From contig NC_003450.3 of NCBI RefSeq assembly GCF_000011325.1, positions 2,880,001 to 2,912,000 on the forward strand: a stretch of 32,000 nt of DNA, written 5' to 3'. This DNA comes from Corynebacterium glutamicum ATCC 13032 (lineage in GTDB: Bacteria; Actinomycetota; Actinomycetes; Mycobacteriales; Mycobacteriaceae). This document shows, piece by piece, positions 8,840-27,515 of the stretch (positions are counted from its first letter, which is position 1; every line of letters starts with the position of its first letter). The notes beneath the pieces were generated by a model. That model did not search any database, had not been told where the DNA came from, and saw nothing but the letters and a program-made list of their open reading frames with translations. The translations under genes and the position numbers were made by a program.

Positions 8840-8870
8840 AAAAGCCCTCCCGCAAAGCGTGCGGGAGGGC
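8840..8870 (-). terminator. Rho-independent terminator after groEL2
   Basis: GCCCTCCCGC (8844-8853) pairs with GCGGGAGGGC (8861-8870). On the minus-strand transcript a TTTT run follows (8840-8843). Confidence 0.8.
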
Positions 8871-10662: not shown

Positions 10663-10689
10663 TTGGCACTCTGATTAGTTGAGTGCTAA
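10663..10689. promoter_or_regulatory. CIRCE operator 1 (HrcA binding site)
   Basis: TTGGCACTC-N9-GAGTGCTAA compared with the consensus TTAGCACTC-N9-GAGTGCTAA. It sits in the groEL2 5' region. Confidence 0.9.
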
Positions 10690-10697
10690 CTACTTTT

Positions 10698-10724
10698 CTA
10701 GCACTCAAGGGGTGTGAGTGCAAG
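10698..10724. promoter_or_regulatory. CIRCE operator 2 (HrcA binding site)
   Basis: CTAGCACTC-N9-GAGTGCAAG lies 8 bp upstream (in the gene sense) of CIRCE 1. Confidence 0.8.
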
Positions 10725-10752
10725 ATTTTATAGCTTCAAATGCCCTAATCAG
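10725..10752 (-). promoter_or_regulatory. Candidate sigma-A promoter of groEL2
   Basis: On the minus strand: CTGATT (10747-10752), a 16-nt spacer, then TAAAAT (10725-10730), immediately upstream of CIRCE 2. The -35 overlaps the stop codon of the 60-aa ORF. Confidence 0.4.
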
Positions 10753-10931
10753 ATACGTGACCAGATAAAAACCATCACGAGCACAATAATTACGGCTGCC
10801 GCAATGCCAGTGCCGATCCACAACATCGCAGAACGATTCCGCGCCTTTCGCTTGGCCTGTCGCTGCGCCTCATATTCTTCCTCTGCGCGAACCGCATCAA
10901 GCCTCACGCCTTCGGCATGCTGAAAACTCAT
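10749..10931 (-). CDS. 60-aa tail-anchored membrane microprotein (last gene of the cluster)
   Basis: The ATG overlaps the upstream stop (ATGA, 10928-10931). The N-terminal half is a charged helix (EEEYEAQRQAKRKARNR). The C-terminal half is a single TM segment (MLWIGTGIAAAVIIVLVMVFIW). Confidence 0.7.
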   Translation of the reverse strand: MSFQHAEGVRLDAVRAEEEYEAQRQAKRKARNRSAMLWIGTGIAAAVIIVLVMVFIWSRI

Positions 10932-12139
10932 TTAAACCACCTCAGGAATCCACGTTTTTTAGGTTCTTCAACCGGGGCCTCTTGGGCTTCAGGCTGGCTG
11001 GTCGGGGCAGGTTGGGCAGGCGGGATATTGCTTTTCGACGTCTCCAGCCCCTCTAGAATCCCAATTTCCGAGAACAACTCTCTCAACGGATCCAGGCAAC
11101 GAAACGGTGCGATACCGCTTCGATTAATCCGATCACCTTCAGGACTTGCACCCAGAGGAGACACCGCGAAGCACTGGAACGGATAAGCCTCTTCACCAGC
11201 TAGGGGCTGATTGAACTGGTTCAGCAAATGCGTCGCATCCAAGCACTGCAGCATGCTTCGAATTTCCAGATCCAAAATCTCGCCAGCAACGCGATCATAT
11301 GCACCATCAAGCGGAGCACTGTCCCTGCGGAAAGTTGCACCAAAGTTGCTCATCACGCGCTGCCAATTCACCATGTTTGCTCCTGCATAGTGCAGGTGAT
11401 CTTGGTTCACTTCAGCTAGCTGCTGCATGGTGTCGAACTTAGACATGCACAGGGAAATCTTGGGGCGATAATCCGGTCCCAACACTCGGAGCACGTTTCT
11501 TAAGACAACCATCGGCCCATCAGTGTCCACCTCATGAGTGGGGACTGAACCTTCCAACATCTGTCGGATTCGTGGAACAGACATGGGATCAAACAGAAAA
11601 AGAATGCGGTCCGCGTTTTGGAAAAACGCTAGTTCGTCTTCACGAGCCGAAAAATTCTCTTCCTGCAGATCTTCGCCTGCCACATCCCTAAAGACTAAAA
11701 AGAGTCGCTGCTCTGGATGATTCGAGGTTGAAATATCAAAGATCAATGGACGCTGCTGATGTGCATCAGGAGCCGATGCTGGCGGAGTAGGCGGAAGCAA
11801 TCCCATCTGTTCAAACAGTGGCTTCTCGTATTTTTCCTGGTAAATCCGGCGGGTGTGCTCATCGGCGTATAAAAATGATCCACCGTTGGCAACGACCAGT
11901 TTGCGCAGCAGCTTCACGATCACCGCAATGTACATACTCTTGCCCGATGACCTGTCACCTGCCATTGCGAAAGTCAGAGTTCCGGAATTTTGCCACCCGT
12001 CTGGCAGGGTCGCATCCTGGACCGTCGCATCAACAAAAGGTGATGAGGTCGCTTCTGGATCCGGCAGCACTTGGAAAGTGAAAGGACACCGTGTGGGGAG
12101 CAGACCAGTGGAGGGTGGGTAAACATCAGGAGCGGTCAT
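10928..12139 (-). CDS. Ras-like (TRAFAC-class) P-loop GTPase with a basic amphipathic C-terminus
   Basis: G1 is GDRSSGKS (11936-11959), G3 is DVAGED (11669-11686) and G4-like is SKFD (11432-11443), in the canonical order and spacing. The C-terminus is KKRGFLRWFK. ATGA overlaps occur at both gene junctions. Confidence 0.85.
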   Translation of the reverse strand: MTAPDVYPPSTGLLPTRCPFTFQVLPDPEATSSPFVDATVQDATLPDGWQNSGTLTFAMAGDRSSGKSMYIAVIVKLLRKLVVANGGSFLYADEHTRRIYQEKYEKPLFEQMGLLPPTPPASAPDAHQQRPLIFDISTSNHPEQRLFLVFRDVAGEDLQEENFSAREDELAFFQNADRILFLFDPMSVPRIRQMLEGSVPTHEVDTDGPMVVLRNVLRVLGPDYRPKISLCMSKFDTMQQLAEVNQDHLHYAGANMVNWQRVMSNFGATFRRDSAPLDGAYDRVAGEILDLEIRSMLQCLDATHLLNQFNQPLAGEEAYPFQCFAVSPLGASPEGDRINRSGIAPFRCLDPLRELFSEIGILEGLETSKSNIPPAQPAPTSQPEAQEAPVEEPKKRGFLRWFK

Positions 12140-13101
12140 GTCGTTGGATCCTCTCGTCGTGCAACCGAAGTCAACGCGTTAAACATTTGGTGGACAGGTC
12201 CAGCGAGAAGACGCTGATCATGATTTTTAATAGCGTTAATCAGCACTGGATCGAAATAGGTGGTGCTGGTTCCATGTTCCACCAAAGGTTTCCGAGAACT
12301 CAAAACATGCAGGTTGTTGGAGAGTTTTAAGATCTCGGCAGGAATGTCATCAGAGATCACCACCAGCGCATCGTCTGGGGAAATCTGGTGCAAATCCGAA
12401 TTCCACCCCACTTCCCTCACCGGCGCGTACTTTTCCGAAAGCTTGCTGATCTCCTCCGGATTAGCGACACGCACTTTTGGATCCGTAGCGCTACTGGTCA
12501 TCACATGGATGGAGCGTCCCTGGCTCACTACTGATAAAACACCAGTGGCGAAAGAACACATGAGATCAAAGGTCTCGCGGCTGGTGCTTGCTTTCATCGA
12601 CGCCGTCTTATCGACCAACACGGTGACATTAGCTCGAGCAATATCAGCTGAGCCGTCCTTATCAATGGTGCGTCCCAACGCTGATCGAACTGCCGAAGCC
12701 TCAGAGTCCAAAGAACTGTCATTGCTCACATCGCCAGCCTGCATGCGAATGATGCCCTGGCTTGGGAAAACGTTAAGAATCGGGATGGAGCGTAAACCAC
12801 CGATAGGATACGTTGGAAGCTGCAGCGTAGTTTCTTGGCGCCCAGCCTCCTGAATCACCACAGTTACATACAGCTTGGTTCCCGAAGGGAATTCTCCCCG
12901 ATCGCCATCAGGAAACACCGTGACCTCGGTATTTCCTTGAGGATTACGAATCCACCACGTATTGCCACGTCGGTTGGTTTCTGTGGAAGGAACCTCTACC
13001 CGGAATCCTAAGTCCTCGCTGAGATCAAATTCCAGACGTGCAGAAAATCCCTCGCGTGGTACGTCATAGGTCTGGTTGGAATCCAGTCGAATCACGTTCA
13101 T
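12136..13101 (-). CDS. Cytoplasmic vWA-like protein (beta-rich N-terminal domain plus C-terminal MIDAS-type domain)
   Basis: VTVLVDKTASM contains D-x-T-x-S (12598-12612), followed by the vWA-like strand pattern ...IHVMTS... and ALVVISDDIP. I see no signal peptide or TM segment. ATGA overlaps occur at both ends. Confidence 0.75.
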   Translation of the reverse strand: MNVIRLDSNQTYDVPREGFSARLEFDLSEDLGFRVEVPSTETNRRGNTWWIRNPQGNTEVTVFPDGDRGEFPSGTKLYVTVVIQEAGRQETTLQLPTYPIGGLRSIPILNVFPSQGIIRMQAGDVSNDSSLDSEASAVRSALGRTIDKDGSADIARANVTVLVDKTASMKASTSRETFDLMCSFATGVLSVVSQGRSIHVMTSSATDPKVRVANPEEISKLSEKYAPVREVGWNSDLHQISPDDALVVISDDIPAEILKLSNNLHVLSSRKPLVEHGTSTTYFDPVLINAIKNHDQRLLAGPVHQMFNALTSVARREDPTT

Positions 13102-15086
13102 GACCGCATGTCCTTTCCAATATTATTCCGGCTAATTGCTCTGATGATAGCGCGCGCCATCTCAGTAAAAATCTGGTTAACATCCCTAGACCGGGACACT
13201 TTCTTATTGATGATATCTTGGTCGATATAGCCGAGATATTGCTGTACTGCTCGAGCATTGGTGAGAATCGACGGCAAATCCTCTCGGGCAATCTGCTCAC
13301 CATATTTCTCGAATCGTCTAATGTCTTCCGTTCTGCCCTCTTGAAGAGTTAACTGCACGAAACTAAGAACAGAATCGACCGTGAGAGTAGTAAAAGCCCT
13401 GTAGGTATCTTCGTCGCCGATCAAAGCGACTCCAAAATACGCCCGCAAAAGATCCCACATGAAGTGGCTTCTACCAGTTTGAACAGACGCACCCGCAATG
13501 ATTCCTGCAAAGATCTGCTGAGCTTCATCGCTTCTCGTCCAGTCTTCGATGTCTGGCAAAGACCGATCTCTGCTGAAGTTCGGAACGATATGGTCCAAGA
13601 CGATTGCCGCAGGTGCTCTGTTCCTAGCATCGCGTTCTGCGTCCACGAGTAGTTCCCTCAAGCGAGGGTGCGCATCCTCGGTGAACTTAATGTGTCGCCA
13701 GTTGTCCATCGCTGGAAAGTCTGAAAAACTACTCCGAAAAAAGGGATCCGAAGCATTAATGCTTGTCGCAAGCTCAGTTTTCAAAAGGAAATCCAAATAG
13801 GCAACAAGATCCTGTGCCGGCGAATCATGAAGCTTCTCAATGCTGTTGATCGCCTGCTCTGACATATTGATGATCCTGCGCCGACTATCCGGCAATCGCC
13901 TCAGACTTGGCCAATCTTGTGATTCTGATGCTCTCCGAGGATTGTGAACTACCTCAGATGCACGCGCCCAAATTGCATTGGGGTTTGGTGCCGGAGCGAC
14001 AGGCTCCACCTTAGGTGCTGGCTTGTCTGGCACCTTTCCAAACATATGCTGATCAGCAAGTACGCGAAGCGGGTGCGTGCCGGAAAAACGGCCATTCCGG
14101 ATAAATCGCGCTAAACCGTCTCCAAATTGAGCGAGTTCCTTTTGGCTATTATCCAGGTTCTCGTTGGCACGAATCAGCCCTGCGACAAGTTCATCAGCAT
14201 CAAAACCGTCGGAGAAGAGCCCTTCTGTCATTCGGGACCAGGATCCCTGCGGGCCGAAAGGTTGGCTCTGTGGAATCTCCGGATCGATAATCACAATCCC
14301 TGAATGCTCCGCCAACAATTCACGATCAATTCCTGGGACCACAAACAGAGAACGAGCCTCCATTGATTTATCTGGAGCTGGCAAGGTAGCAGCACGCTCA
14401 AAGGTTGAGAAGTGCAACAGACGCCGGGCTTCATTCGGAGTCAATGTAGAAGACAACGCTTGAAGCCAATATGCTGCCTCGTTAGTGCTGTTCAGAACCA
14501 AAACAGTAGCTTTATCTCCAGCTTGGAGAGCATCTTGAAGCTGGTAGAACTGCTGTCTGCGATCGCCAAACATGCTGTCGATCATCATCCACGACAAGGA
14601 CAGATCAGTGATGGGGCCAATTCTCGGCTCGCCTGCATCCAAAGGGAGCTCGGCAGCGTTGACCGCGGCTGCACGAAAAGGGGTCAGCAAATCAGGTGAA
14701 CGGTACAGGGAAATGGGATAAACAGACTCCAGTGGGCTTTCTAGATCCCCATCAAATACTGCATGGGTGAACACATTCCCTGGACGTCCAGTGGCATCTT
14801 TACCTGCAGGAACAGACTGCATGATCAACGATCGGCCTGCCAAAGGACGGTACTCAAACCTCCTCGGCAACGCATCGATATCTTCTGATGAGATGAAATC
14901 ATCAAAAGGGGTCACCGTTTCAATATGAGTGGGCGCAACCTCCGCGATAAATTGGAGGTCTTCTTTAGTGGCCTGAGCAGACCAAGTTCCCACCTTCCAC
15001 CCACCCCTACCTGCAGTTCCTCTAAAGGACGCGTAGGTGACATGAGTCCATCTCAAGGCCACGGGCAACTCACCTGCTTCCACCAA
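13098..15086 (-). CDS. 662-aa hypothetical protein, possible GTPase-associated adaptor
   Basis: The long ORF has native codon style. The start is ambiguous: TTG 15086 or GTG 15083 overlap the upstream stop, and GTG 15062 lies 8 nt after it. The N-terminus LRWTHVTYASFRGTAGRGGWKVGTWS resembles the h-x-Y-T-S...G-x-G-G-[FW] signature I associate with GAP1-N type domains of predicted GTPase-centred systems. I recognised no enzymatic motif. Confidence 0.8.
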   Translation of the reverse strand: MVEAGELPVALRWTHVTYASFRGTAGRGGWKVGTWSAQATKEDLQFIAEVAPTHIETVTPFDDFISSEDIDALPRRFEYRPLAGRSLIMQSVPAGKDATGRPGNVFTHAVFDGDLESPLESVYPISLYRSPDLLTPFRAAAVNAAELPLDAGEPRIGPITDLSLSWMMIDSMFGDRRQQFYQLQDALQAGDKATVLVLNSTNEAAYWLQALSSTLTPNEARRLLHFSTFERAATLPAPDKSMEARSLFVVPGIDRELLAEHSGIVIIDPEIPQSQPFGPQGSWSRMTEGLFSDGFDADELVAGLIRANENLDNSQKELAQFGDGLARFIRNGRFSGTHPLRVLADQHMFGKVPDKPAPKVEPVAPAPNPNAIWARASEVVHNPRRASESQDWPSLRRLPDSRRRIINMSEQAINSIEKLHDSPAQDLVAYLDFLLKTELATSINASDPFFRSSFSDFPAMDNWRHIKFTEDAHPRLRELLVDAERDARNRAPAAIVLDHIVPNFSRDRSLPDIEDWTRSDEAQQIFAGIIAGASVQTGRSHFMWDLLRAYFGVALIGDEDTYRAFTTLTVDSVLSFVQLTLQEGRTEDIRRFEKYGEQIAREDLPSILTNARAVQQYLGYIDQDIINKKVSRSRDVNQIFTEMARAIIRAISRNNIGKDMRS

Positions 15087-20327: not shown

Positions 20328-23300
20328 TTAGAACTCACCCTCACCAGGTAGAGAAGGTCCTGAAGAAACGTCGCGGCGAGCTACGTTCATGTCAAAGACC
20401 TGTGCTGATGGTGGACCTGCAGCCAAGCACTTTTCCAGGATGTCGATGATTTCTTGGGTGCCATCAAAAACATCGGCTGCAAGGTCAGCAAACACTGGAA
20501 TCTGTGCTGCTAGTTCACGATCCTTGACGTCGCCAAATGGACGATCAGCGGTGGTGAACAGACGGCCTTGGCGAAGCTTGTCGCTTGGGACGTAATTTTG
20601 CGAGATCTCGTTCTGGCGCTGCAGGAAGTTCTTCGCAGCCTCAAAACGTGCAGCTGGGGTGACACCAGCTTCGGTTCCTGGGATCTGGAGGACGTTTCCA
20701 GCCATGCGGTTGCCGTCGAAAAGCCAATCGTGCAGCAGCTTCTCACCGCGGGTGGTGCGTCCTGGCAAGGATGGGCTCGCAGCATCATCCCACAGTTGGC
20801 GGAGCTGGATGTAAGGCTCGACGGATTCAAAGACAGGACGCTCGCCTGCCCGTGCCCATGCCAATGATGCTGATTCCAGAAGGTTTGGCAGCCAATCGAG
20901 GCTTCCACGGAAACGGGACACTGGGGTGAGCATTGGGGTGGAGAAGTTGATCCACGAATCAGACTTCTCATCGTAGATCTGCACTGGAGTGGTATCCGCA
21001 GTGTCTAGAGTTGCGGGGAAGAATACTCGTCCGACCAGACGACCGATGTACCAACCCTTGACCATGGCGTTGCGCTCTAGGTCTGTCATTGGAAGTGCAG
21101 CAGTCAAAGGACGAGTACGGCGGCCATGCCAGAATTCCGTGCGATCGCCGGTGATCTGACGCCACTGCTTCTCGATTGGAGGCAGCAGGGAGTCAAACAC
21201 GATCGGCGCGTAGTTGGGGTAAGAGCCGAAGATATCAATGGAACGCTCTTCACCTTGGGAGACCAAAGCCTTGCCCAGTGGCTTGGAAATATCTGCTGGT
21301 CGGTGGTTCGGGTAATCACGAACTGCCTGTTCCAGGCTGGATCCAAGCTCATCGCCGGCAAATGGGATGCGAGAGAAGTTGAAGTTGTAGCGGACTTCAT
21401 CGCCGTAAAGCGCACGAACCAGTTGAGGGTTGATCTGAGCCAATGGAAGCGCGTAGGTCATTGCCTCACTGAACTTGCTCAGCACCTGCTGACGGCGCGC
21501 GCGACGCTCGTGGTCTGCCAAGCCCGGCGCGGTGATGAATTCACGCAGTGAGCTGGCGATGAACTGCTGGAAGGAGAAACCAGGGCGGCGGATGTACTGG
21601 CGGGAGCGCTCGAGTACTTCGCCGGTATCAATCTTCAGCTCAAAGCGTGCTTGCTTAGGGTCGCGGAGGCTTCCCGAACCGGACGGATCCCTGGTCAGGT
21701 CACGGGCAACCCATACGTCGATGAGGCGGATGAGATCGCGTGGTGCTTTTTCAGAGCCGGACTTGGATTCCCACACACCGCTGACTACTCGAGTTGAGGC
21801 CTCTTGCAGGGCGCTCGAGTAATCGTTTTGTTCGTTGATGTCATCGGTGGACGAGCGGACGTGTGCTTGGAACTGCTCCGGGAAGGAGGCGACATCGGTC
21901 AGGAAGACTTCGTTGGCTGCCTGACTGAAACGTGACGGGACGGTAGTTTGAGATTCATCTGGCCACAGTGCTGGAACGTTGGTTTTCAGCTGGGAGATTC
22001 CCAGGTTCACATCGTTGGTGAGCTGGTAGTCCTTTTCTAGGGAGTGGTGCTCACGTTGGATGGTGCGCTGAAGTGGGTAGATGAAATTTTTGAGGAAATC
22101 GTCCAGAACCGAAGCCATGTGGTCCGCAATGTATTGCACTGCGCGGGTGTGTAGTTGACCAGTGGATCGTGACACGATTTCCTGGATGTAGCTGTCAGAA
22201 TCGTCGATCCTGCCCTTGCTGTTGTCCAGTTCACTGCGGCTGACATCGTCTAGTTGAACAGCCTCAGGTGCACGGTTGTTTGCCAGATCAGAAAGCTGTC
22301 CGATGAGTTGGTTTTGGATTGTGGCGCTGAGAGATTCGATCACGCTGACGCCGTAAGGAACGCCCAGTTTTGCGATCTCATCACGAAGCAACTCGACTAC
22401 TCGGCGCTGCAACACATCAGCACTGGCCCAGTCGGCGACACCCATGTAGAGCTCATGGCGGGAGTCATTATCAATCATCTGGCTGGATGATTGGAAAGCA
22501 CGCTGGACATCCCCGAGCCATTCACTTCCGCGCTGGCCATTAGCTGCAGGAATTTGGCTCTTGATGATTGCTTTCATACGCTGGGTCCAGTTTTCAATCA
22601 TCTGGTTGAAACTATGGAAAATCCAGTCCCCTGCCGGCGCGTTGACGGGCAAAACGTCGCTGAGGTTGCCCATCAGCGATGGACGGTTGTTCTCGAGTCG
22701 CTTTTGAAGCTGCTGGTCAGAGGCCGCATCATTGCTTGGATCAAAGTGTCCCTTGAGCAGACGATCCACGGCAGAGCGTGCCAGTCGCTGGGCGGCGTAT
22801 TCTGCGTAGCGATCACGACCCATGGATAGTTGTGAGTAGCCGTAGCTGCCCCACGGAATGTTCTTAGCTTCCTGTGCACCCCATGCGTACTTGCTCTGAT
22901 CGGCACTTCCGCCACCACGGTTGCCGAGGGTGAATTGCTCGAAGTTGTCCATGGACACTTCATCAGCCATCAGAGCTGCAAGGCCACGGCCGAGTGCGCG
23001 GTAGACGGTATCTGGCTTGCCATCACCAAGCAGAGCGCCGTTTTCACCGGAGCGAATACCCACTGGGAAGATACGTCCAACTGGGATGGAGTCATCGCCA
23101 ACAGAAACACCCAAAGCGTTAAACAGTCGGGCATCTTCTTCGGAAGCTGCACCCATCTGTGCTGCTGCGAGCTCGGCAAACATGGCCAGCGCGTTTGGGT
23201 TAGTTCCGGCAACCTGGTCTGGGGAAAGCTGGGAGAAGATATCCGGGGTCACCATAAACAGTGAGCTCAGACCCACTGCGTTGCCTTCAAGACCGGTGAG

Positions 23301-23921
23301 CAGGCGGCAGATATCTAGAGCCATCGAAGCACCGGCGCCACCAGCCATGGAGGAGACAACGAAGATAATTGGCTGCTCTTTAGAGGTTTCACCACTGGAA
23401 ACAGACGTGCCATACAGTGCAGAACGAAGGTCAGCGAGCTCACGTTCAGTCTCACCGCTGAACAACACATCCCATGATTTACGTAATTCAGCCTGAATTT
23501 CCTGAAGTCGGCTCAGGATCAACATACGGCCAATGGAGCGGTACTGGCCCGCACCTTTACTAATTGGGGTGGTTTCAGAATCAGGGTTTCGAAGCGCCCA
23601 TGAAGAAACGCCACCCAACGCGCCCCTGGAGGAGAGCTGGTTGGACACCGCAGTATCAACGGTGGCATAGCGATCCGAGGAACCACAGGAAATATAACGT
23701 CCACCGGCTTCTGGAACATTCGGAAGGTTCGGGCCGGGGCTTTCTGGGGAGGTCGGAACATCCACCGACACGAACTGCCACGCACCAGGAAGTTTTGCTT
23801 CCTTTGGATTTGGGTAACGCTCGGGAAGACTATCCGCCAGGGTGGTCTTGAGCTGGTCCATCATATAAGCGAGCGTTTTGGCACCTGAACCACCACAGCC
23901 GACAACGAGAACTTTCTTCAT
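20328..23921 (-). CDS. 1197-aa tubulin/FtsZ-superfamily GTPase-like protein with a roughly 900-aa helical extension
   Basis: KKVLVVGCGGSGAKT (23874-23900) compares with FtsZ IKVIGVGGGGGNA. SKGAGQYRSIGR (aa 121-132) compares with the FtsZ T3 loop GLGAGANPEVGR. IIFVVSSMAGGAGASMALD (AGGAGAS at 23325-23345) compares with the tubulin signature [SAG]-G-G-T-G-[SA]-G. AAGGA precedes the ATG. The C-terminal tail is SLPGEGEF. Confidence 0.85.
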   Translation of the reverse strand: MKKVLVVGCGGSGAKTLAYMMDQLKTTLADSLPERYPNPKEAKLPGAWQFVSVDVPTSPESPGPNLPNVPEAGGRYISCGSSDRYATVDTAVSNQLSSRGALGGVSSWALRNPDSETTPISKGAGQYRSIGRMLILSRLQEIQAELRKSWDVLFSGETERELADLRSALYGTSVSSGETSKEQPIIFVVSSMAGGAGASMALDICRLLTGLEGNAVGLSSLFMVTPDIFSQLSPDQVAGTNPNALAMFAELAAAQMGAASEEDARLFNALGVSVGDDSIPVGRIFPVGIRSGENGALLGDGKPDTVYRALGRGLAALMADEVSMDNFEQFTLGNRGGGSADQSKYAWGAQEAKNIPWGSYGYSQLSMGRDRYAEYAAQRLARSAVDRLLKGHFDPSNDAASDQQLQKRLENNRPSLMGNLSDVLPVNAPAGDWIFHSFNQMIENWTQRMKAIIKSQIPAANGQRGSEWLGDVQRAFQSSSQMIDNDSRHELYMGVADWASADVLQRRVVELLRDEIAKLGVPYGVSVIESLSATIQNQLIGQLSDLANNRAPEAVQLDDVSRSELDNSKGRIDDSDSYIQEIVSRSTGQLHTRAVQYIADHMASVLDDFLKNFIYPLQRTIQREHHSLEKDYQLTNDVNLGISQLKTNVPALWPDESQTTVPSRFSQAANEVFLTDVASFPEQFQAHVRSSTDDINEQNDYSSALQEASTRVVSGVWESKSGSEKAPRDLIRLIDVWVARDLTRDPSGSGSLRDPKQARFELKIDTGEVLERSRQYIRRPGFSFQQFIASSLREFITAPGLADHERRARRQQVLSKFSEAMTYALPLAQINPQLVRALYGDEVRYNFNFSRIPFAGDELGSSLEQAVRDYPNHRPADISKPLGKALVSQGEERSIDIFGSYPNYAPIVFDSLLPPIEKQWRQITGDRTEFWHGRRTRPLTAALPMTDLERNAMVKGWYIGRLVGRVFFPATLDTADTTPVQIYDEKSDSWINFSTPMLTPVSRFRGSLDWLPNLLESASLAWARAGERPVFESVEPYIQLRQLWDDAASPSLPGRTTRGEKLLHDWLFDGNRMAGNVLQIPGTEAGVTPAARFEAAKNFLQRQNEISQNYVPSDKLRQGRLFTTADRPFGDVKDRELAAQIPVFADLAADVFDGTQEIIDILEKCLAAGPPSAQVFDMNVARRDVSSGPSLPGEGEF

Positions 23922-23961
23922 GTGTAAATCCTTAAGTTAGTTTTTAATCGCAAGTTACAGG

Positions 23962-26643
23962 TTATCGCGCGCCGAAGCCGCCGCTGGAACCAAATCCACC
24001 ATTTGTGTCGTTGGATCCGCTACCGGAGCCAAAGCCTCCACCATTGCTGGAGCCGAAACCACCACCGGAACCAGTGCCAAAACTAGGAGCTTGCTTTTCG
24101 ACGTGGCCCTGCGCGGCTGGGGCGCGCGGTGGAACCTTTGCGGGCTGGGAGGTCGCGGCGTCGTCAAGCAATTTTTGTAGTTCGCGTGCCCTATCAGGGG
24201 CTTTGCTGGTGATACCTGCGATCATGCGGTCGATTTGGCCCTGCTCGAGCGGCAGGTTTGTCAGGGCGATGAGTTCCATCTTGGAAGGGTCAGCGCCGCT
24301 TGCAGTGAGGAACCAACTGCCTTGGACCGCCAGCGGGAGTTTAGCTTGTGTGCCCTTTTGTTTGCCGTCGAAGCTGATCGACGGGTCGGTCTGCACGATC
24401 ACTGCAGGAGACGCAATCGGGTTCAGCTGGAAGCGCTGGACTTTAAGTTTGTGGCCTTCCACATTGAAGGTGTCTCCATGAACAACGACCTGCTTGGTGG
24501 CGGTGGTTTGCGATGCGAGATCAGGCATAGTGCTGCCCGCATAGCGCAGAGCTTCACCGGAGAATTCCACTGGAATGCGCACGCCACTCATCGCAGAGGA
24601 CGGAACCTTTGCGGAGAGGAAACGCACAATATACAAAATGAGCAGCGGAATCAGGAGGGAAAGCACAAGGGCCAAAATGAATGCCAATGCGAAAGTGGAG
24701 GCGTTAATGGGAACGCTCAACGTGCCTTCTGTCGGCAGATCCACGCTGGTTTCATTGGCGCCCTCAGCGTTGGAGATCTGGAGTGGAATCGAGCCGTTGA
24801 CCAGTCCGTCACGAAGATCGCTCACGGTTAGTTCAACAGGAATCGTGCCCTGCTCATCCAGTCCGAGCACCAAAGCATTATCTGGGCTGTCGAAAGTACT
24901 TGATGCTGCAATGCCGTCCACGCCGTCTGGAAGCACTCCGCTGAGCTGGGTTCCCGGTGCAATCCATACCTTGCCGGGGCCGGTGATGGGGATGTCTACG
25001 GTAACAACGTCCTCATCCGCTGTGAAGCGAACCGACGCTGGCAGCTGAGGCATATCGCGCTGAGTGATGGTGATGCGCGTGGTGTTGAGAATTGGGCTCA
25101 ACGTGGTGCCGGGGAGATCATCGACGCCTGCGGTGGTGATCGTGGTACGCGCTTCCACCGTGCCGATGGCTGGGAGCTGCGAAATCGTATCCAGCGGGAA
25201 GCTTAATTCGCCGCCAGAAATATCAATTCCTTGAGCCAAAGGGGCGAACTCGCCGGTATCTGCGCGGGTGAAACCAAGATCGACCAGCGCGGACCCCTCA
25301 AGGATGCGTGGCTGACCATCACGGCCCACCAGCTGCATATTCAGCTGCTGATCATCGCGAAGGTTAAGTGCACCTGACGTCGAATCACCGCCACTGAACA
25401 CAAGCTGGAGGTCAGGCTGGATCTCCACTGAGTTGAATACGCGTCCATCAACCGCTGCAGGATCAATTCCTTGGAACTGAATCTGCCAGACACCCTTCCA
25501 ATCCCCACCTTGCTGCAGGTTGAGGGAACCATCAGCCATTTTTACTGGGCTGCTTTCGGCTTCCCAACTCACGTCAGTGCTGTTGGCGACGCTGCTTCCA
25601 GAATCTTTGAGCTCAACCGTTTCGCCGTTGGGTGCGGTGAGCACCAAGTGGGCGTTCGGGCCGAGATCATCCTTGGCGATCGCGGTGAAACGCACAGAGT
25701 TCACCGAGTTGTCCAGGGTGAAGCTGAAAGGATCACCAGCTCGGGTTTCACCAATTGTTTCACCACCAATCGCAAGGGCTTCACGGAATGCTGCGAAAAG
25801 TCCGCCCACGTTATCTGCTGGGAAGAATGCACCGTTAGCTGGTTCGACACCACATGTTCCGCCACCTGCGGTGGTTCCGCGCAGCAGGCTGAAATCAGAT
25901 GGGTTGGTAGGTGCCGATAAACCGATGCCGATGTGGGTGATGCCAGCACTGCGCAGTCGATCGGTGACGCCACCCGGCGCGCACAGTGCTGCTTCTGCAA
26001 CATCGGCGCCTTCTTGAGCGGTCAGTGCGCCGTCGGTGAAGGTCACCAGCATGCGGCAGGCGTCCTCAGAGCCGGACCTAGTGAAGTCCTGGTAAGCGCC
26101 CTCAATCGCGGAGGCGTAGTTGGTGTACTGCTCCTGGGTGCGGTCAGCGAAGCGGGAGATTTCATCTTGTACTCCGCCAACGGTGGAGGCATCTAGTTGC
26201 GTCCATGCTCCGTAATTGTCTGGATCAGTGGCACCAGATTTGTACGTCTGGCCGAAACCAGCAACACGGATGCGGGTGTTCAGATCACCATCGCTTTGCT
26301 TGGCTAGAAGCTCATCCACAAAGCTCTGTGCTGCAGGAACACGGTGGTGCTGTGCGTCCGCGCCTGGTTCATTGGCGTTGACCACGCCGTCACGAGCTTC
26401 ATGGATCAAGGATTCTGTCTCATCGATCATGATGATGACATCAAGAGTGCCTTTATCAGCGATGCAGGCACCCAGGTTGCTCAAAGAACCTGACGCTCCG
26501 GCCTCAACTGCAGGTGGTTCCTGCGCCAACGCACTAGGCGCGAGGCTTACCAAAGCGCCAAAAAATAGCGCTGTGGCTGCAGCAACAACGCCTCTGGCAA
26601 AACGGGGTACATTCACGGTTTTAGAGTTCAACGTGTTCACCAT
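23962..26643 (-). CDS. 893-aa bitopic membrane protein: signal peptide, extracytoplasmic vWA (MIDAS) domain, beta-rich region, TM segment, cytoplasmic domain, Gly/Ser/Phe tail
   Basis: I prefer ATG 26643 (MVNTLNSKTVNVPRFARGVVAAATALFFGALVSLAPSALA|QE, a signal-peptide-like N-terminus). The MIDAS motif is DVIIMIDETES (DETES at 26410-26424), later followed by MLVTFTDGAL. The TM segment FALAFILALVLSLLIPLLILYIVRFL lies at 24616-24693. The tail is GGGFGSSNGGGFGSGSGSNDTNGGFGSSGGFGAR. Confidence 0.85.
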   Translation of the reverse strand: MVNTLNSKTVNVPRFARGVVAAATALFFGALVSLAPSALAQEPPAVEAGASGSLSNLGACIADKGTLDVIIMIDETESLIHEARDGVVNANEPGADAQHHRVPAAQSFVDELLAKQSDGDLNTRIRVAGFGQTYKSGATDPDNYGAWTQLDASTVGGVQDEISRFADRTQEQYTNYASAIEGAYQDFTRSGSEDACRMLVTFTDGALTAQEGADVAEAALCAPGGVTDRLRSAGITHIGIGLSAPTNPSDFSLLRGTTAGGGTCGVEPANGAFFPADNVGGLFAAFREALAIGGETIGETRAGDPFSFTLDNSVNSVRFTAIAKDDLGPNAHLVLTAPNGETVELKDSGSSVANSTDVSWEAESSPVKMADGSLNLQQGGDWKGVWQIQFQGIDPAAVDGRVFNSVEIQPDLQLVFSGGDSTSGALNLRDDQQLNMQLVGRDGQPRILEGSALVDLGFTRADTGEFAPLAQGIDISGGELSFPLDTISQLPAIGTVEARTTITTAGVDDLPGTTLSPILNTTRITITQRDMPQLPASVRFTADEDVVTVDIPITGPGKVWIAPGTQLSGVLPDGVDGIAASSTFDSPDNALVLGLDEQGTIPVELTVSDLRDGLVNGSIPLQISNAEGANETSVDLPTEGTLSVPINASTFALAFILALVLSLLIPLLILYIVRFLSAKVPSSAMSGVRIPVEFSGEALRYAGSTMPDLASQTTATKQVVVHGDTFNVEGHKLKVQRFQLNPIASPAVIVQTDPSISFDGKQKGTQAKLPLAVQGSWFLTASGADPSKMELIALTNLPLEQGQIDRMIAGITSKAPDRARELQKLLDDAATSQPAKVPPRAPAAQGHVEKQAPSFGTGSGGGFGSSNGGGFGSGSGSNDTNGGFGSSGGFGAR
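23965..24090 (-). repeat. Gly/Ser/Phe low-complexity tail (GGFGS-type repeats) of the vWA membrane protein
   Basis: The translated C-terminal 42 aa are almost entirely G, S, F and N. Confidence 0.85.
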
Positions 26644-27251
26644 GACTGCTTTCCTACCCACAGGGCAATATCCAAGGCCGACCACACAACAGCAAACACC
26701 AATAGGACGGCTGTCGCAGTAAAGAGCGCTTTCTTCCACGGCACTTCTGTATAAAAGCCTGTCGACTTTCGCTCATTTACTGCTGACATGTACTTGCCGA
26801 TGGACAGCACGCTCAAAATTCCTGCCAACACCCACGCAATTCCAGCAACGATGAGAAAAAGATTATCGGTGGCCACTGGCGCACCGAAGGTAATCCACGC
26901 ATTGAGTCCCAGGCTGATCAGCCCTAAAACTAGGCCCGGAAGAATCCATTCAGTGGGTGCCGATTGAAGGCGCCCACCAGCTCTTTTTCGCCCCGATGAG
27001 CGCCCCGGCGCTGGGCTTTCTGCAACCTTTGGCGTCGAAAAGCCCGATGGGTTTGACGTTGCTCCGGCCGGGGTAAACCCGCCAGTTGAACCGCCGAACG
27101 AGCCATTCGATGAACCCCCAGAGAAACCGCCTGAAGAGCCACCAAAACCACTGTTTTGGGAGCCTCCACCGAAACCTGATTGCCCGCCTGAAAATCCGCC
27201 AGAGGAAGAACCAAACGTTCCCCCGGGTGGTTGGGTAAATCCTTGTGACAT
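26637..27251 (-). CDS. 204-aa membrane protein: Gly/Ser/Phe-rich N-terminal arm plus 3 TM helices (first gene of the cluster)
   Basis: GGAG lies 8 nt upstream of ATG 27251. The N-terminal roughly 75 aa read GGTFGSSSGGFSGGQSGFGGGSQNSGFGGSSGGFSGGSSNGSFGGSTGGF. A basic patch RSSGRKRAGGR follows, then three hydrophobic helices. The stop overlaps the next start (ATGGTGA). Confidence 0.8.
   Translation of the reverse strand: MSQGFTQPPGGTFGSSSGGFSGGQSGFGGGSQNSGFGGSSGGFSGGSSNGSFGGSTGGFTPAGATSNPSGFSTPKVAESPAPGRSSGRKRAGGRLQSAPTEWILPGLVLGLISLGLNAWITFGAPVATDNLFLIVAGIAWVLAGILSVLSIGKYMSAVNERKSTGFYTEVPWKKALFTATAVLLVFAVVWSALDIALWVGKQSW
27026..27251 (-). repeat. Gly/Ser/Phe low-complexity coding tract (GGF/SGF repeats)
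   Basis: The translation of the first roughly 75 codons of the 204-aa ORF has the same composition as the tail of the downstream vWA protein. Confidence 0.85.
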
Positions 27252-27515
27252 CAGCTACTCCGCACGTGAATAATTGATCGAAACTCTAAAGCTGCCAAGT
27301 TTCCTTGAGATATGCCTTCTTCTCTGACATTTTCCTGTTTGATTAATATAACCCACGGGGTGGACACCGCTCTCGTCCTAATCCATAAACGAAGTAGAGT
27401 TTTCGAACACTTCAACGCTGCCCCTCTATGCTGCTCCTAGTTACCCCTGCACAAATAGCGGTTTTTCTCACGCATTCTGCATCGAGTCGGGTCGACGTAT
27501 ATAAGGTGGAAAGGC

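What the first reader, a model, noticed from the sequence alone, without database searches (positions are those of the whole stretch)
10749..27251. Nine translationally coupled genes pairing a giant tubulin/FtsZ-like GTPase with a Ras-like GTPase, two vWA proteins and four membrane-anchored partners
Seen in sequence: nine same-strand ORFs (204, 893, 1197, 933, 818, 662, 321, 403, 60 aa) have almost no intergenic space. The junctions are ATGGTGA (26637-26643), a TAAATG abutment (20325-20330), TAATG (17524-17528), a 17-nt overlap at 15070-15086, and ATGA at 13098-13101, 12136-12139 and 10928-10931. The single gap (23922-23961) carries AAGGA. Motif reading gives a tubulin/FtsZ-type head on the 1197-aa protein and Ras-like G1/G3/G4 motifs on the 403-aa protein. 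It also gives MIDAS-type vWA domains on the exported 893-aa and cytoplasmic 321-aa proteins, plus four membrane-anchored members. I recognised no nuclease, protease, TIR, kinase, integrase or transposase motif. Composition resembles the flanks, so it is not an obvious island. Inference: a stoichiometrically co-produced, membrane-spanning, dual-GTPase machine. Role (a): an NTP-switch conflict/anti-phage system of the vWA+GTPase kind predicted by comparative genomics, with the Trp-rich hairpin and tail-anchored proteins as membrane effectors. Role (b): GTP-driven membrane or envelope remodelling. Role (c): because it is co-directional with groEL2-porH-porA, handling of the signal-peptide-less porins. 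Sequence alone cannot separate these.
Basis: partly seen in the sequence, partly recalled or inferred. Interest (0 to 1): 0.9.

Follow-up and report, generated by a model that had tools for sequence, protein, structure and literature searches.

The report
Known actinobacterial tubulin-GTPase-vWA membrane operon
This is a real nine-gene operon of Corynebacterium glutamicum encoding a tubulin-like protein, a small GTPase with its partner protein, two vWA proteins and membrane anchors; the same gene set is conserved across Actinobacteria and was already described by comparative genomics in 2010 and 2020, although its function is still untested.

Summary
Nine minus-strand ORFs (10749-27251) are joined by the stated overlaps and abutments. 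The domain readings hold: Pfam Tubulin_2 on the 1197-aa protein, DO-GTPase2 on the 403-aa protein, vWA on the 893-aa protein (through orthologues) and on the 321-aa protein (through a structure model), plus four membrane proteins.

The window is C. glutamicum. Eight of the nine genes are collinear in about 80 loci from Corynebacterium, Mycobacterium, Rhodococcus, Gordonia, Propionibacteriales and Arthrobacter. groEL2 is adjacent only in close relatives and has its own CIRCE operators, so the porin-handling idea is not supported.

This is the [quoted passage not shown] of Kaur et al. 2020 and an FtsZl1 operon of Makarova and Koonin 2010. Two components carry Pfam families named after M. smegmatis SaeA and SaeC. 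So it is already known as a predicted system; its function remains open.

Small additions: the tubulin-like protein and the 933-aa membrane protein share a co-varying C-terminal peptide, and the C. glutamicum clade lost the GTPase zinc ribbons.

The parts
26637..27251 (-). P1, 204 aa. Gly/Ser/Phe-rich N-terminal region followed by three predicted membrane helices (residues 103-199). First gene of the block.
   Evidence: ORF; hydrophobic segments; tblastn relatives in the same position in most loci; no Pfam hit.
23962..26643 (-). P2, 893 aa. Signal peptide (18-36), extracytoplasmic vWA domain with MIDAS residues (DETES; invariant D74, S78, T174, D204), a beta-rich region, one membrane helix (655-673) and a cytoplasmic tail ending in GGFG repeats.
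   Evidence: Orthologues match VWA_2 (18 of 24) and VWA (14 of 24). Invariant columns. Fits the 'membrane-bound vWA + beta-strand-rich' component of Kaur et al..
23922..23961 (-). The only intergenic gap in the block (40 nt), with AAGGA 8 nt before the P3 start codon.
20328..23921 (-). P3, 1197 aa. Tubulin/FtsZ-superfamily head (residues 5-386; GCGGSGA and SMAGGAGAS glycine loops) plus a C-terminal extension of about 800 aa ending in the peptide LPGEGEF.
   Evidence: Pfam Tubulin_2 E=8.8e-66, model 1-356 of 356. 644 relatives with E<=1e-5 among the candidates scored; those listed are about 1180-1230 aa. Invariant motifs. Tail.
17526..20327 (-). P4, 933 aa. N-terminal alpha/beta domain, long helices carrying a Trp-rich membrane hairpin (about 545-610), a C-terminal alpha/beta domain, and the tail LPGTGEF. 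No known family.
   Evidence: No Pfam, NCBIfam or PADLOC hit. AlphaFold2 model with pLDDT 78.6. No significant PDB fold match. No profile similarity to P3. Always directly downstream of the tubulin-like gene.
15070..17526 (-). P5, 818 aa. SaeA-type protein: small N-terminal domain, acidic Pro/Glu-rich linker, then five fibronectin-III-like domains.
   Evidence: Precomputed Pfam hits Fn3_SaeA_2nd to Fn3_SaeA_6th on the C. glutamicum product, and SaeA_1st to 6th on orthologues. The in-session Pfam copy lacks these models.
13098..15086 (-). P6, 662 aa. GTPase-associated protein 1 (GAP1) of the N2 type.
   Evidence: Pfam GAP1-N2 E=3.9e-24 and GAP1-M E=2.4e-12; the same in orthologues.
12136..13101 (-). 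P7, 321 aa, cytoplasmic. N-terminal beta-sandwich (1-122) plus a vWA-like domain (about 155-311) with DKTAS (family consensus DxSxS) and a conserved downstream Asp (D251).
   Evidence: Alignment. Weak VWA_2, vWA-TerF-like and CoxE hits in orthologues. AlphaFold2 pLDDT 80. Foldseek top hits are vWA domains: CLCA1, ITIH1, Ro60, vWF A1, MDN1 MIDAS.
10928..12139 (-). P8, 403 aa. DO-GTPase2-family P-loop GTPase (GDRSSGKS, DVAGE, SKFD). It lacks the N-terminal zinc ribbons of its orthologues and ends in the basic-aromatic tail KKRGFLRWFK.
   Evidence: Pfam DO-GTPase2 E=2.8e-11. Motifs and Cys counts. Orthologues also match SaeC_ESX1_N.
10749..10931 (-). P9, 60 aa, tail-anchored (membrane helix 38-56). 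Lineage-specific addition to the block.
   Evidence: ORF with ATGA overlap; membrane helix. tblastn finds it only in the C. glutamicum contigs L003 and L004.
27270..27298 (-). Sigma-70-like promoter match (TTGGCA-17-AATTAT) 19 nt upstream of the P1 start. A candidate operon promoter only.
   Evidence: Consensus match only; the region has fewer such matches than shuffled sequence.
10663..10724 (.). Two CIRCE-type inverted repeats between the P9 stop and the groEL start. They mark groEL2 as a separately regulated unit and so set the downstream boundary of the block.
   Evidence: 2 matches against 0.01 expected. CIRCE as the HrcA operator is established knowledge.

Best explanation
The block is the C. 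glutamicum copy of a conserved actinobacterial module. It is the FtsZl1/Tubulin_2 operon of Makarova and Koonin 2010, and the GAP1-N2-type DO-GTPase system (tubulin theme) of Kaur et al. 2020. Its P5 and P8 components belong to the families that Pfam names after M. smegmatis SaeA and SaeC.

Shown: eight co-translated proteins are inherited together. They are an exported, membrane-anchored vWA protein (P2); a polytopic partner (P1); a cytoplasmic tubulin-like GTPase with a long extension (P3); a hairpin-anchored 933-aa protein (P4); an Fn3-array protein (P5); GAP1 (P6); a cytoplasmic vWA protein (P7); and a P-loop GTPase with intact catalytic motifs (P8).

Inferred mechanism: the P8-P6 pair acts as a GTP switch. 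The switch controls whether the tubulin-like protein assembles into a polymer on the inner face of the membrane. P4 tethers or templates that polymer. P3 and P4 end in the same co-evolving C-terminal peptide, so both probably dock on one common receptor, much as the FtsZ C-terminal peptide docks on its membrane anchors. The vWA proteins and the Fn3 array act as adaptors that link the polymer to an extracytoplasmic ligand (P2) and to cytoplasmic clients (P5, P7).

Preferred physiological role: a chromosomally stable scaffold that organises envelope-spanning machinery. The only experimental precedent I know of is the requirement of saeA-C for ESX-1 (type VII) secretion in M. smegmatis, which is recalled from memory. 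My estimates: identity of the system about 0.95, switch-plus-polymer mechanism about 0.5, scaffold role about 0.4.
For: Identity: Pfam Tubulin_2, GAP1-N2, GAP1-M and DO-GTPase2. SaeA Fn3 families and SaeC_ESX1_N occur on the window product or its orthologues. The block matches the published description component by component. A reviewer comment in the 2010 paper names the C. glutamicum vWA gene cgR_2627.

Co-inheritance: collinear in about 80 loci from several orders, with overlapping stop and start codons.

Active switch: Walker A, Walker B (DVAGE) and SKFD are conserved in all orthologues checked. Tubulin glycine loops are invariant.

vWA.

Shared tail: the last 8 residues of P3 and P4 from the same locus score 6.9 (BLOSUM62), against 0.35 +/- 1.0 for shuffled pairings (0 of 10000 reach the observed value). 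Tails of P2, P5 and P6 score -6 to -9. The last residue is identical in 41 of 55 distinct pairs. The motif persists in L021 and L022, where P3 is 22-28 nt from the next start, so it is not just a ribosome-binding site.

Stable, non-mobile character: the block sits in the same chromosomal position beside the M20 peptidase gene and groEL2 in related corynebacteria. It occurs on 2 of 72,556 plasmids, both non-mobilizable Rhodococcus replicons over 1 Mb, and in no phage. No variable effector domain was found and there is no PADLOC hit. The 2010 paper notes vertical inheritance in actinobacteria.
Against: There is no experiment on any C. glutamicum component. Polymerisation, GTP hydrolysis and all protein contacts are inferred.

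The Sae phenotype is recalled from memory (Converse and Cox 2005; Coros et al. 2008). It could not be read in the held library. It may also be indirect.

No type VII secretion gene lies in this 32-kb window or in the flanks of the two annotated loci.

The sister GAP1-N1 systems carry clear toxic effectors, which favours an immune role for the shared DO-GTPase-GAP1 core.

The tubulin fold rests on the Pfam model. hhalign against one FtsZ sequence and a profile search of PDB sequences gave nothing significant.

The receptor for the shared tail is unknown.
Confidence: 0.5

Rival explanations
1. It is an NTP-switch conflict (anti-phage or abortive-infection) system, as predicted by Kaur et al. 2020. 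The Fn3 and vWA components sense an invader. The DO-GTPase-GAP1 pair sets a threshold. The tubulin-like protein, together with membrane proteins such as P4, forms a macromolecular assembly that contains the invader or kills the cell.
For: The published classification matches this architecture. The sister GAP1-N1 systems carry SLATT, trypsin, caspase and glycosylase effectors. The paper also reports mutual exclusion with VMAP ternary systems in actinobacteria. The distribution is not universal: at least 363 GTDB species representatives encode a relative. P4 shows weak, non-significant resemblance to ClyA-type alpha-pore-forming toxins. Two very divergent versions exist within Corynebacterium.
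Against: No component matches any PADLOC model at a meaningful E-value. No variable effector is present, and all eight genes are constant across orders. The chromosomal position is stable, the composition is like the flanks, and housekeeping genes flank the block. The system is essentially absent from plasmids and phages. Products of the C. glutamicum contigs L003 and L004 are 98-100% identical to the window's, apart from 93% for the 60-aa P9 in L003, so there is no hypervariable sensor. I know of no phage-challenge data.
Confidence: 0.35
2. It is a GTP-driven membrane-remodelling or vesicle-forming machine (Makarova and Koonin 2010). FtsZl1 filaments constrict or shape the cytoplasmic membrane together with the membrane partners.
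For: The 2010 context analysis proposes this. Four membrane proteins are present, including a hairpin-type insertion in P4. The tubulin-like protein is encoded separately from the cell's own FtsZ.
Against: This is a purely contextual prediction. No ESCRT-like, dynamin-like or BAR-like fold was found in P4. It does not explain the Fn3 array, GAP1 or the two vWA domains.
Confidence: 0.1
3. It handles or exports the signal-peptide-less porins PorH and PorA, or works with GroEL2.
For: The block is co-directional with groEL2, porH and porA in this window. No strong terminator lies between P9 and groEL.
Against: groEL adjacency is limited to close Corynebacterium relatives. The block is conserved in Mycobacterium, Rhodococcus, Gordonia, Propionibacteriales and Arthrobacter without it. 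groEL2 has two CIRCE operators of its own.
Confidence: 0.03

Closest known systems
GAP1-N2-type DO-GTPase ('GTPase-centric') system, actinobacterial tubulin theme (Kaur, Burroughs, Iyer and Aravind, eLife 2020, PMC7159879)
   Same: It has a DO-GTPase with a Walker B glutamate, GAP1 with N2 and M domains, a single tubulin-domain protein with a long C-terminal extension, an Fn3-repeat protein, and a membrane-bound vWA protein with a beta-rich region. It occurs in Actinobacteria.
   Different: The C. glutamicum GTPase lacks the two N-terminal zinc ribbons. In the passages of the paper retrieved, three things are not mentioned: the 933-aa hairpin protein, the second (cytoplasmic) vWA protein with its beta-sandwich, and the shared C-terminal peptide. 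P9 is a local addition.
FtsZl1 operons (Makarova and Koonin, Biology Direct 2010, PMC2875224); Pfam Tubulin_2 (PF13809)
   Same: A tubulin/FtsZ-superfamily GTPase is encoded beside vWA proteins, a diverged P-loop GTPase and membrane proteins. A reviewer comment in that paper cites the C. glutamicum locus itself, as cgR_2627.
   Different: That paper predicted membrane remodelling and did not resolve GAP1, the Fn3 array or P4.
M. smegmatis SaeA/SaeB/SaeC, described as ESX-1 'scaffolding and assembly' genes (from memory: Converse and Cox 2005; Coros et al. 2008)
   Same: P5 and its orthologues match the Pfam SaeA domain families. P8 orthologues match SaeC_ESX1_N plus DO-GTPase2. The Sae proteins are therefore components of this same module.
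   Different: No type VII secretion genes lie in this window. The literature could not be retrieved here. It was not verified which gene is SaeB. A role in secretion in C. glutamicum is untested.
FtsZ with its conserved C-terminal peptide and membrane anchors (FtsA, ZipA, SepF)
   Same: This is a 'works like' comparison only. A tubulin-superfamily polymer carries a short conserved C-terminal peptide with a terminal hydrophobic residue, which could dock it to a membrane-associated partner.
   Different: Here the same peptide also ends a membrane protein (P4). The head belongs to a different family (Tubulin_2). No division genes are nearby.
MoxR-vWA ternary systems (VMAP and related)
   Same: An NTPase switch is combined with vWA adaptors and a third constant component. 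Kaur et al. report mutual exclusion with this system in actinobacteria.
   Different: There is no AAA+ MoxR ATPase and no fused effector. The switch is a GTPase.

Membership tests
GAP1-N2-type DO-GTPase system (Kaur et al. 2020) | DO-GTPase of the TRAFAC class with a conserved glutamate in Walker B | tested here: met
   Pfam DO-GTPase2 E=2.8e-11, above the 27-bit cut-off. GDRSSGKS, DVAGE and SKFD are present and conserved in 18 orthologues.
GAP1-N2-type DO-GTPase system (Kaur et al. 2020) | GAP1 protein with a GAP1-N2 and a GAP1-M domain, encoded next to the GTPase | tested here: met
   GAP1-N2 E=3.9e-24 and GAP1-M E=2.4e-12 on P6. One gene (P7) lies between P6 and P8, and this holds in all loci.
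GAP1-N2-type DO-GTPase system (Kaur et al. 2020) | Protein with fibronectin-III repeats | tested here: met
   Precomputed Pfam hits Fn3_SaeA_2nd to 6th on the C. glutamicum product and on orthologues. The in-session Pfam copy lacks these models; generic fn3 hits occur in only 2 of 23 orthologues.
GAP1-N2-type DO-GTPase system (Kaur et al. 2020) | Actinobacterial tubulin theme: a single tubulin-domain protein with a C-terminal alpha-helical extension | tested here: met
   Tubulin_2 covers residues 5-386 of 1197. The extension is conserved over its full length. Its helical nature was not modelled; the only hint is a weak apolipoprotein-like match.
GAP1-N2-type DO-GTPase system (Kaur et al. 2020) | Membrane-bound vWA protein with a beta-rich region | tested here: met
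   P2 has a signal peptide and a membrane helix. vWA is found in 18 of 24 orthologues. MIDAS residues are invariant.
GAP1-N2-type DO-GTPase system (Kaur et al. 2020) | Two N-terminal zinc ribbons on the GTPase (described as 'usually' present) | tested here: not met
   The window P8 has 1 Cys and no CxxC before the P-loop. Mycobacterial and propionibacterial orthologues have 5-11 Cys and 2-3 CxxC. This is a lineage-specific loss of a usual, not obligatory, feature.
GAP1-N2-type DO-GTPase system (Kaur et al. 2020) | HRDC domain fused to one Fn3 protein | tested here: inconclusive
   The P5 N-terminal domain corresponds to Pfam SaeA_1st in orthologues. No HRDC hit appeared in Pfam or PDB profile searches.
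FtsZ/tubulin superfamily | Sequence membership in a tubulin-clan family with the glycine-rich nucleotide-binding loops | tested here: met
   Tubulin_2 at 223 bits against a 27-bit cut-off. Invariant GxGGSG and SMAGGxGAS. Independent checks were not significant.
FtsZ/tubulin superfamily | GTP-dependent polymerisation | not testable with these tools
   This needs biochemistry or imaging.
vWA (MIDAS) domain | Rossmann-like vWA fold with DxSxS...T...D metal-site residues | tested here: met
   P2. P7: family consensus DxSASM plus a conserved downstream Asp; AlphaFold2 model pLDDT 80 with vWA top hits. In C. glutamicum both proteins read DxTxS.
Known or candidate anti-phage defence systems (PADLOC-DB v2) | A profile match of any component to a catalogued defence protein | tested here: not met
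   Only chance-level hits (E >= 5e-4, on the 60-aa membrane peptide).
Sae (ESX-1 accessory) genes of M. smegmatis | Orthology to SaeA and SaeC | tested here: met
   Pfam families named for SaeA and SaeC hit the P5 product and P5/P8 orthologues. This is family-level evidence, not a direct comparison with the M. smegmatis proteins.
Sae (ESX-1 accessory) genes of M. smegmatis | Genetic requirement for, or linkage to, a type VII secretion system | not tested
   No type VII gene appears among the window's large ORFs or in the flanks of L001 and L002. The rest of the genome is not available.

The most novel reading that the evidence does not exclude
The tubulin-like protein and the hairpin-anchored P4 dock on one common receptor through their co-evolving C-terminal peptides. 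This makes the block a GTP-gated, membrane-tethered polymer scaffold. Its role would be to organise envelope-spanning secretion machinery such as type VII systems, rather than to act in immunity. That would make it a third kind of bacterial tubulin cytoskeleton, distinct from division (FtsZ) and DNA segregation (TubZ, PhuZ), and C. glutamicum would be a tractable model for it.
Probability: 0.25. Interest if true: 0.6.

Novelty: already known. Interest (0 to 1): 0.3.

Why it matters
The module is widespread in Actinobacteria, including mycobacteria. It contains a tubulin-superfamily protein that works neither in division nor in plasmid segregation, and two opposed predictions about it (immunity versus membrane or secretion scaffold) have never been tested. 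C. glutamicum is easy to manipulate, and the operon here is compact with clear boundaries, so it is a good place to settle the question. As a discovery it is not new: the gene set, its domains and this locus are already in the literature and in Pfam. The shared C-terminal peptide of P3 and P4 is a small new handle for experiments.

Tried and rejected
1. P4 as a degenerate second tubulin, by analogy with the two tubulin genes of the firmicute version: the hhalign profile comparison of P4 against P3 was negative (probability 0.4%), and the P4 model has no significant PDB match. Weak ClyA-type pore-toxin and Arl-GTPase resemblances were not significant and are recorded only as leads.
2. Independent confirmation of the tubulin fold: a profile search of PDB sequences found no tubulin or FtsZ.
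3. Literature on SaeA-C, MSMEG_0044-46 and cg3013-cg3019: nothing usable was found in the held library. Statements about the Sae phenotypes therefore rest on memory.
5. HRDC on P5: not detected.
6. The shared tail as a mere Shine-Dalgarno by-product: rejected. Other coupled gene ends do not share the motif, and the motif persists where P3 ends 22-28 nt before the next start (L021, L022).
7. The block as a mobile island: rejected on composition, stable synteny and its near absence from plasmids and phages.

Full report
OBSERVATION. The nine minus-strand ORFs exist exactly as described. Re-reading every junction on the coding strand confirms several things. The P1 stop overlaps the P2 start (ATGGTGA). 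A 40-nt gap with AAGGA lies before P3. P3 abuts P4 (TAAATG). P4 and P5 share TAATG. P5 and P6 overlap by 17 nt; the overlap is 14 nt if the GTG one codon downstream is used, which is what gene callers chose. Three ATGA overlaps follow. GC content in the block (0.49-0.58) is like that of the flanks. The tubulin-like protein is 100% identical to a Corynebacterium glutamicum entry. The flanks encode GroEL, PorH, PorA, a PPK2-type kinase and an M20 peptidase.

WHAT EACH GENE IS. Pfam gives the following.
- P3: Tubulin_2, E=8.8e-66, covering the whole model.
- P6: GAP1-N2 (3.9e-24) plus GAP1-M (2.4e-12).
- P8: DO-GTPase2 (2.8e-11).

NCBIfam and PADLOC give nothing meaningful.

Pfam hits stored with public gene calls add more. 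The C. glutamicum P5 product carries Fn3_SaeA_2nd to 6th. Orthologues of P5 carry SaeA_1st to 6th. Orthologues of P8 carry SaeC_ESX1_N. The in-session Pfam copy lacks these newer models.

P2 itself has no vWA hit. Of 24 orthologues, 18 match VWA_2 (best 9e-11) and 14 match VWA. The MIDAS positions D74, S78, T174 and D204 are invariant.

P7 orthologues share DxSASM and a later Asp and give only weak vWA hits. An AlphaFold2 model (pLDDT 80) shows an N-terminal beta-sandwich plus an alpha/beta domain. The best PDB matches of that domain are vWA domains: CLCA1 at E=9e-5 and probability 1.0, then ITIH1, Ro60, vWF A1 and MDN1 MIDAS.

Hydrophobicity analysis finds three helices in P1, a signal peptide and one helix in P2, a hairpin region in P4, and a C-terminal helix in P9.

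P8 has GDRSSGKS, DVAGE and SKFD, conserved in all orthologues checked. The C. glutamicum clade has lost the N-terminal zinc ribbons present elsewhere.

P4 has no family. Its model (pLDDT 78.6) has an N-terminal alpha/beta domain, long helices bearing the hairpin, and a C-terminal alpha/beta domain. It has no significant structural neighbour and no profile similarity to P3.

CONSERVATION. A scan of one genome per GTDB species found at least 363 loci encoding a relative of P3, and the best 80 were fetched. tblastn with all nine proteins shows P2-P3-P4-P5-P6-P8 in the same order and strand in essentially every complete locus. These come from Corynebacterium, Mycobacterium and Mycolicibacterium, Rhodococcus, Gordonia, Williamsia, Nocardia, several Propionibacteriales and Arthrobacter. 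P1 was detected in about two thirds of the loci. An ORF of about 305-360 aa fills the P7 slot in most complete loci. P9 is found only in C. glutamicum.

GroEL is adjacent only in the closest Corynebacterium relatives. The spacer before groEL carries two CIRCE inverted repeats (expected 0.01), so groEL2 is a heat-shock unit of its own. The only strong minus-strand terminator follows groEL.

COMPARISON WITH WHAT IS KNOWN. Kaur et al. [quoted passage not shown] Their actinobacterial tubulin theme has four kinds of component:
- a DO-GTPase with a Walker B glutamate;
- GAP1;
- one tubulin protein with a C-terminal helical extension;
- two Fn3-repeat proteins, one of them membrane-bound and fused to vWA and a beta-rich domain.

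The window matches this component by component. The exception is the missing zinc ribbons, which the paper describes only as 'usually' present.

Makarova and Koonin 2010 had already defined the FtsZl1 family. They noted its operons with vWA proteins, diverged GTPases and membrane proteins. A reviewer comment in that paper names the C. glutamicum vWA gene cgR_2627.

The Pfam names tie P5 and P8 to M. smegmatis SaeA and SaeC. From memory, not verified here, these genes were found in screens for loss of ESX-1 secretion and for conjugation defects. The papers could not be found in the held library. No follow-up experimental paper on DO-GTPase, GAP1 or FtsZl1 turned up.

So the finding is a correct re-discovery of a system that is known as a prediction and unknown in function.

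NEW DETAILS. P3 and P4 end in the same short peptide, and it changes together between lineages:
- LPGEGEF / LPGTGEF in C. glutamicum;
- MPGEDDI / FPSEGDI;
- MPGEDLF / MPGEDLF;
- MPGLD / LPGLD;
- IPEGGTF / PPGGDLVF in mycobacteria;
- LPEGGVY / MPEIDEVY in Microlunatus.

Same-locus tails score 6.9 against 0.35 +/- 1.0 for shuffled pairings, and 0 of 10000 shuffles reach the observed value. Tails of P2, P5 and P6 score -6 to -9 against P3. The last residue is identical in 41 of 55 distinct pairs. The permutation does not remove phylogenetic relatedness. Even so, two unrelated proteins sharing a tail at all is the main point.

The tails lie over the ribosome-binding sites of the next genes. However, the motif persists in L021 and L022, where P3 ends 22-28 nt before the next start.

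I read this as two proteins docking on one receptor, by analogy with the C-terminal peptide of FtsZ. The receptor is unknown. In addition, the cytoplasmic tail of P2 and the N-terminal region of P1 are Gly-rich with FG, GGF or WG repeats.

HOW IT PROBABLY WORKS. Shown: eight proteins are made together and inherited together. Both GTPases keep their nucleotide-binding motifs. One vWA domain is outside the membrane and one is inside.

Inferred: the DO-GTPase-GAP1 pair is a switch that controls assembly of the tubulin-like protein at the membrane. P4 is the tether or template. The vWA and Fn3 proteins are adaptors to an outside ligand and to inside clients.

On the physiological role, the evidence is split. 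The conflict model is supported by the toxic effectors of the sister GAP1-N1 systems and by the reported mutual exclusion with VMAP systems. Against it are several points:
- the constant gene content with no variable effector;
- the stable chromosomal position beside housekeeping genes;
- 98-100% identity to the window for the products of the C. glutamicum contigs L003 and L004, except 93% for the 60-aa P9 in L003;
- the lack of any PADLOC match;
- near absence from plasmids (2 of 72,556, both non-mobilizable Rhodococcus replicons over 1 Mb) and from phages (0 of 50,697).

The only genetic data I know of, the Sae phenotypes, point to a scaffold for envelope or secretion machinery. I therefore slightly prefer the scaffold reading (about 0.4) over immunity (about 0.35). 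Membrane remodelling gets about 0.1 and porin handling about 0.03.

VERDICT. Novelty is 'already known'. Interest is modest (0.3). The open functional question is real and testable in C. glutamicum, but a specialist would not be surprised by the locus.

Noticed in passing
window 20331-20354 (P3 tail) and 17529-17552 (P4 tail); same positions in loci L001-L084: The tubulin-like protein and the 933-aa membrane protein end in the same short peptide (LPGEGEF / LPGTGEF). The peptide co-varies between lineages and usually ends in Phe. This suggests both dock on one common receptor.
   Followed up: yes
window 27072-27224 (P1 residues 10-60) and 23965-24099 (P2 C-terminal tail): Both regions are Gly-rich and low in complexity, with GGF or FG repeats, and both are predicted to face the cytoplasm. 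P2 orthologues keep FG, PFG or WG-type tails although the sequence itself is not conserved.
   Followed up: partly
window 10663-10689 and 10698-10724: Two CIRCE-type inverted repeats (HrcA operator consensus, 1 and 3 mismatches) lie upstream of groEL2. They were used to set the downstream boundary of the operon.
   Followed up: yes
window 11960-12139 (P8 N-terminus) compared with L001, L002, L024, L036, L067, L078: The C. glutamicum-clade DO-GTPase has lost the N-terminal double zinc ribbon: 1 Cys against 5-11 Cys with 2-3 CxxC in mycobacterial and propionibacterial orthologues.
   Followed up: yes
window 10931-10966 (P8 C-terminus): P8 ends in a basic-aromatic stretch (KKRGFLRWFK; L005 ends KKKRFRWF). 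It looks like an amphipathic membrane-targeting tail. Other lineages lack it and end soon after the conserved GIAPFRCxDPxRW motif.
   Followed up: no
window 16747-17274 (P5 residues about 85-260): A long acidic, Pro/Glu-rich low-complexity linker with PEPE-type repeats separates the small N-terminal domain of the SaeA-like protein from its Fn3 array. The linker is much shorter in most orthologues: they are 660-750 aa in total against 818 aa here.
   Followed up: no
loci L035, L037, L047, L058, L070, L077 compared with L005-L014; also L021, L022: Corynebacterium holds two very divergent versions of the system. In one, P3 is 35-37% identical to the window, no closer than mycobacterial copies. 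In the other it is 58-71% identical. Some versions have much shorter GAP1 proteins (324-557 aa). This points to old divergence or transfer within the genus.
   Followed up: partly
locus L003 16396-18874 (C. glutamicum metagenome contig): In this contig the P5 gene is called as a 529-aa product after a gap of about 890 nt, instead of 818-819 aa. This suggests a frameshift or an assembly error in the repetitive linker region.
   Followed up: no
A strong terminator (8844-8870) separates them from groEL2.
   Followed up: partly
window 999-4886, plus strand: A 1295-aa ORF combines an adenylation-type (AMP-binding) N-terminal part and a carrier-like segment with several membrane segments and hexapeptide-repeat-like C-terminal regions. 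This reading is by eye only; no profile search was run. It is an unusual NRPS-like membrane protein, unrelated to the finding.
   Followed up: no
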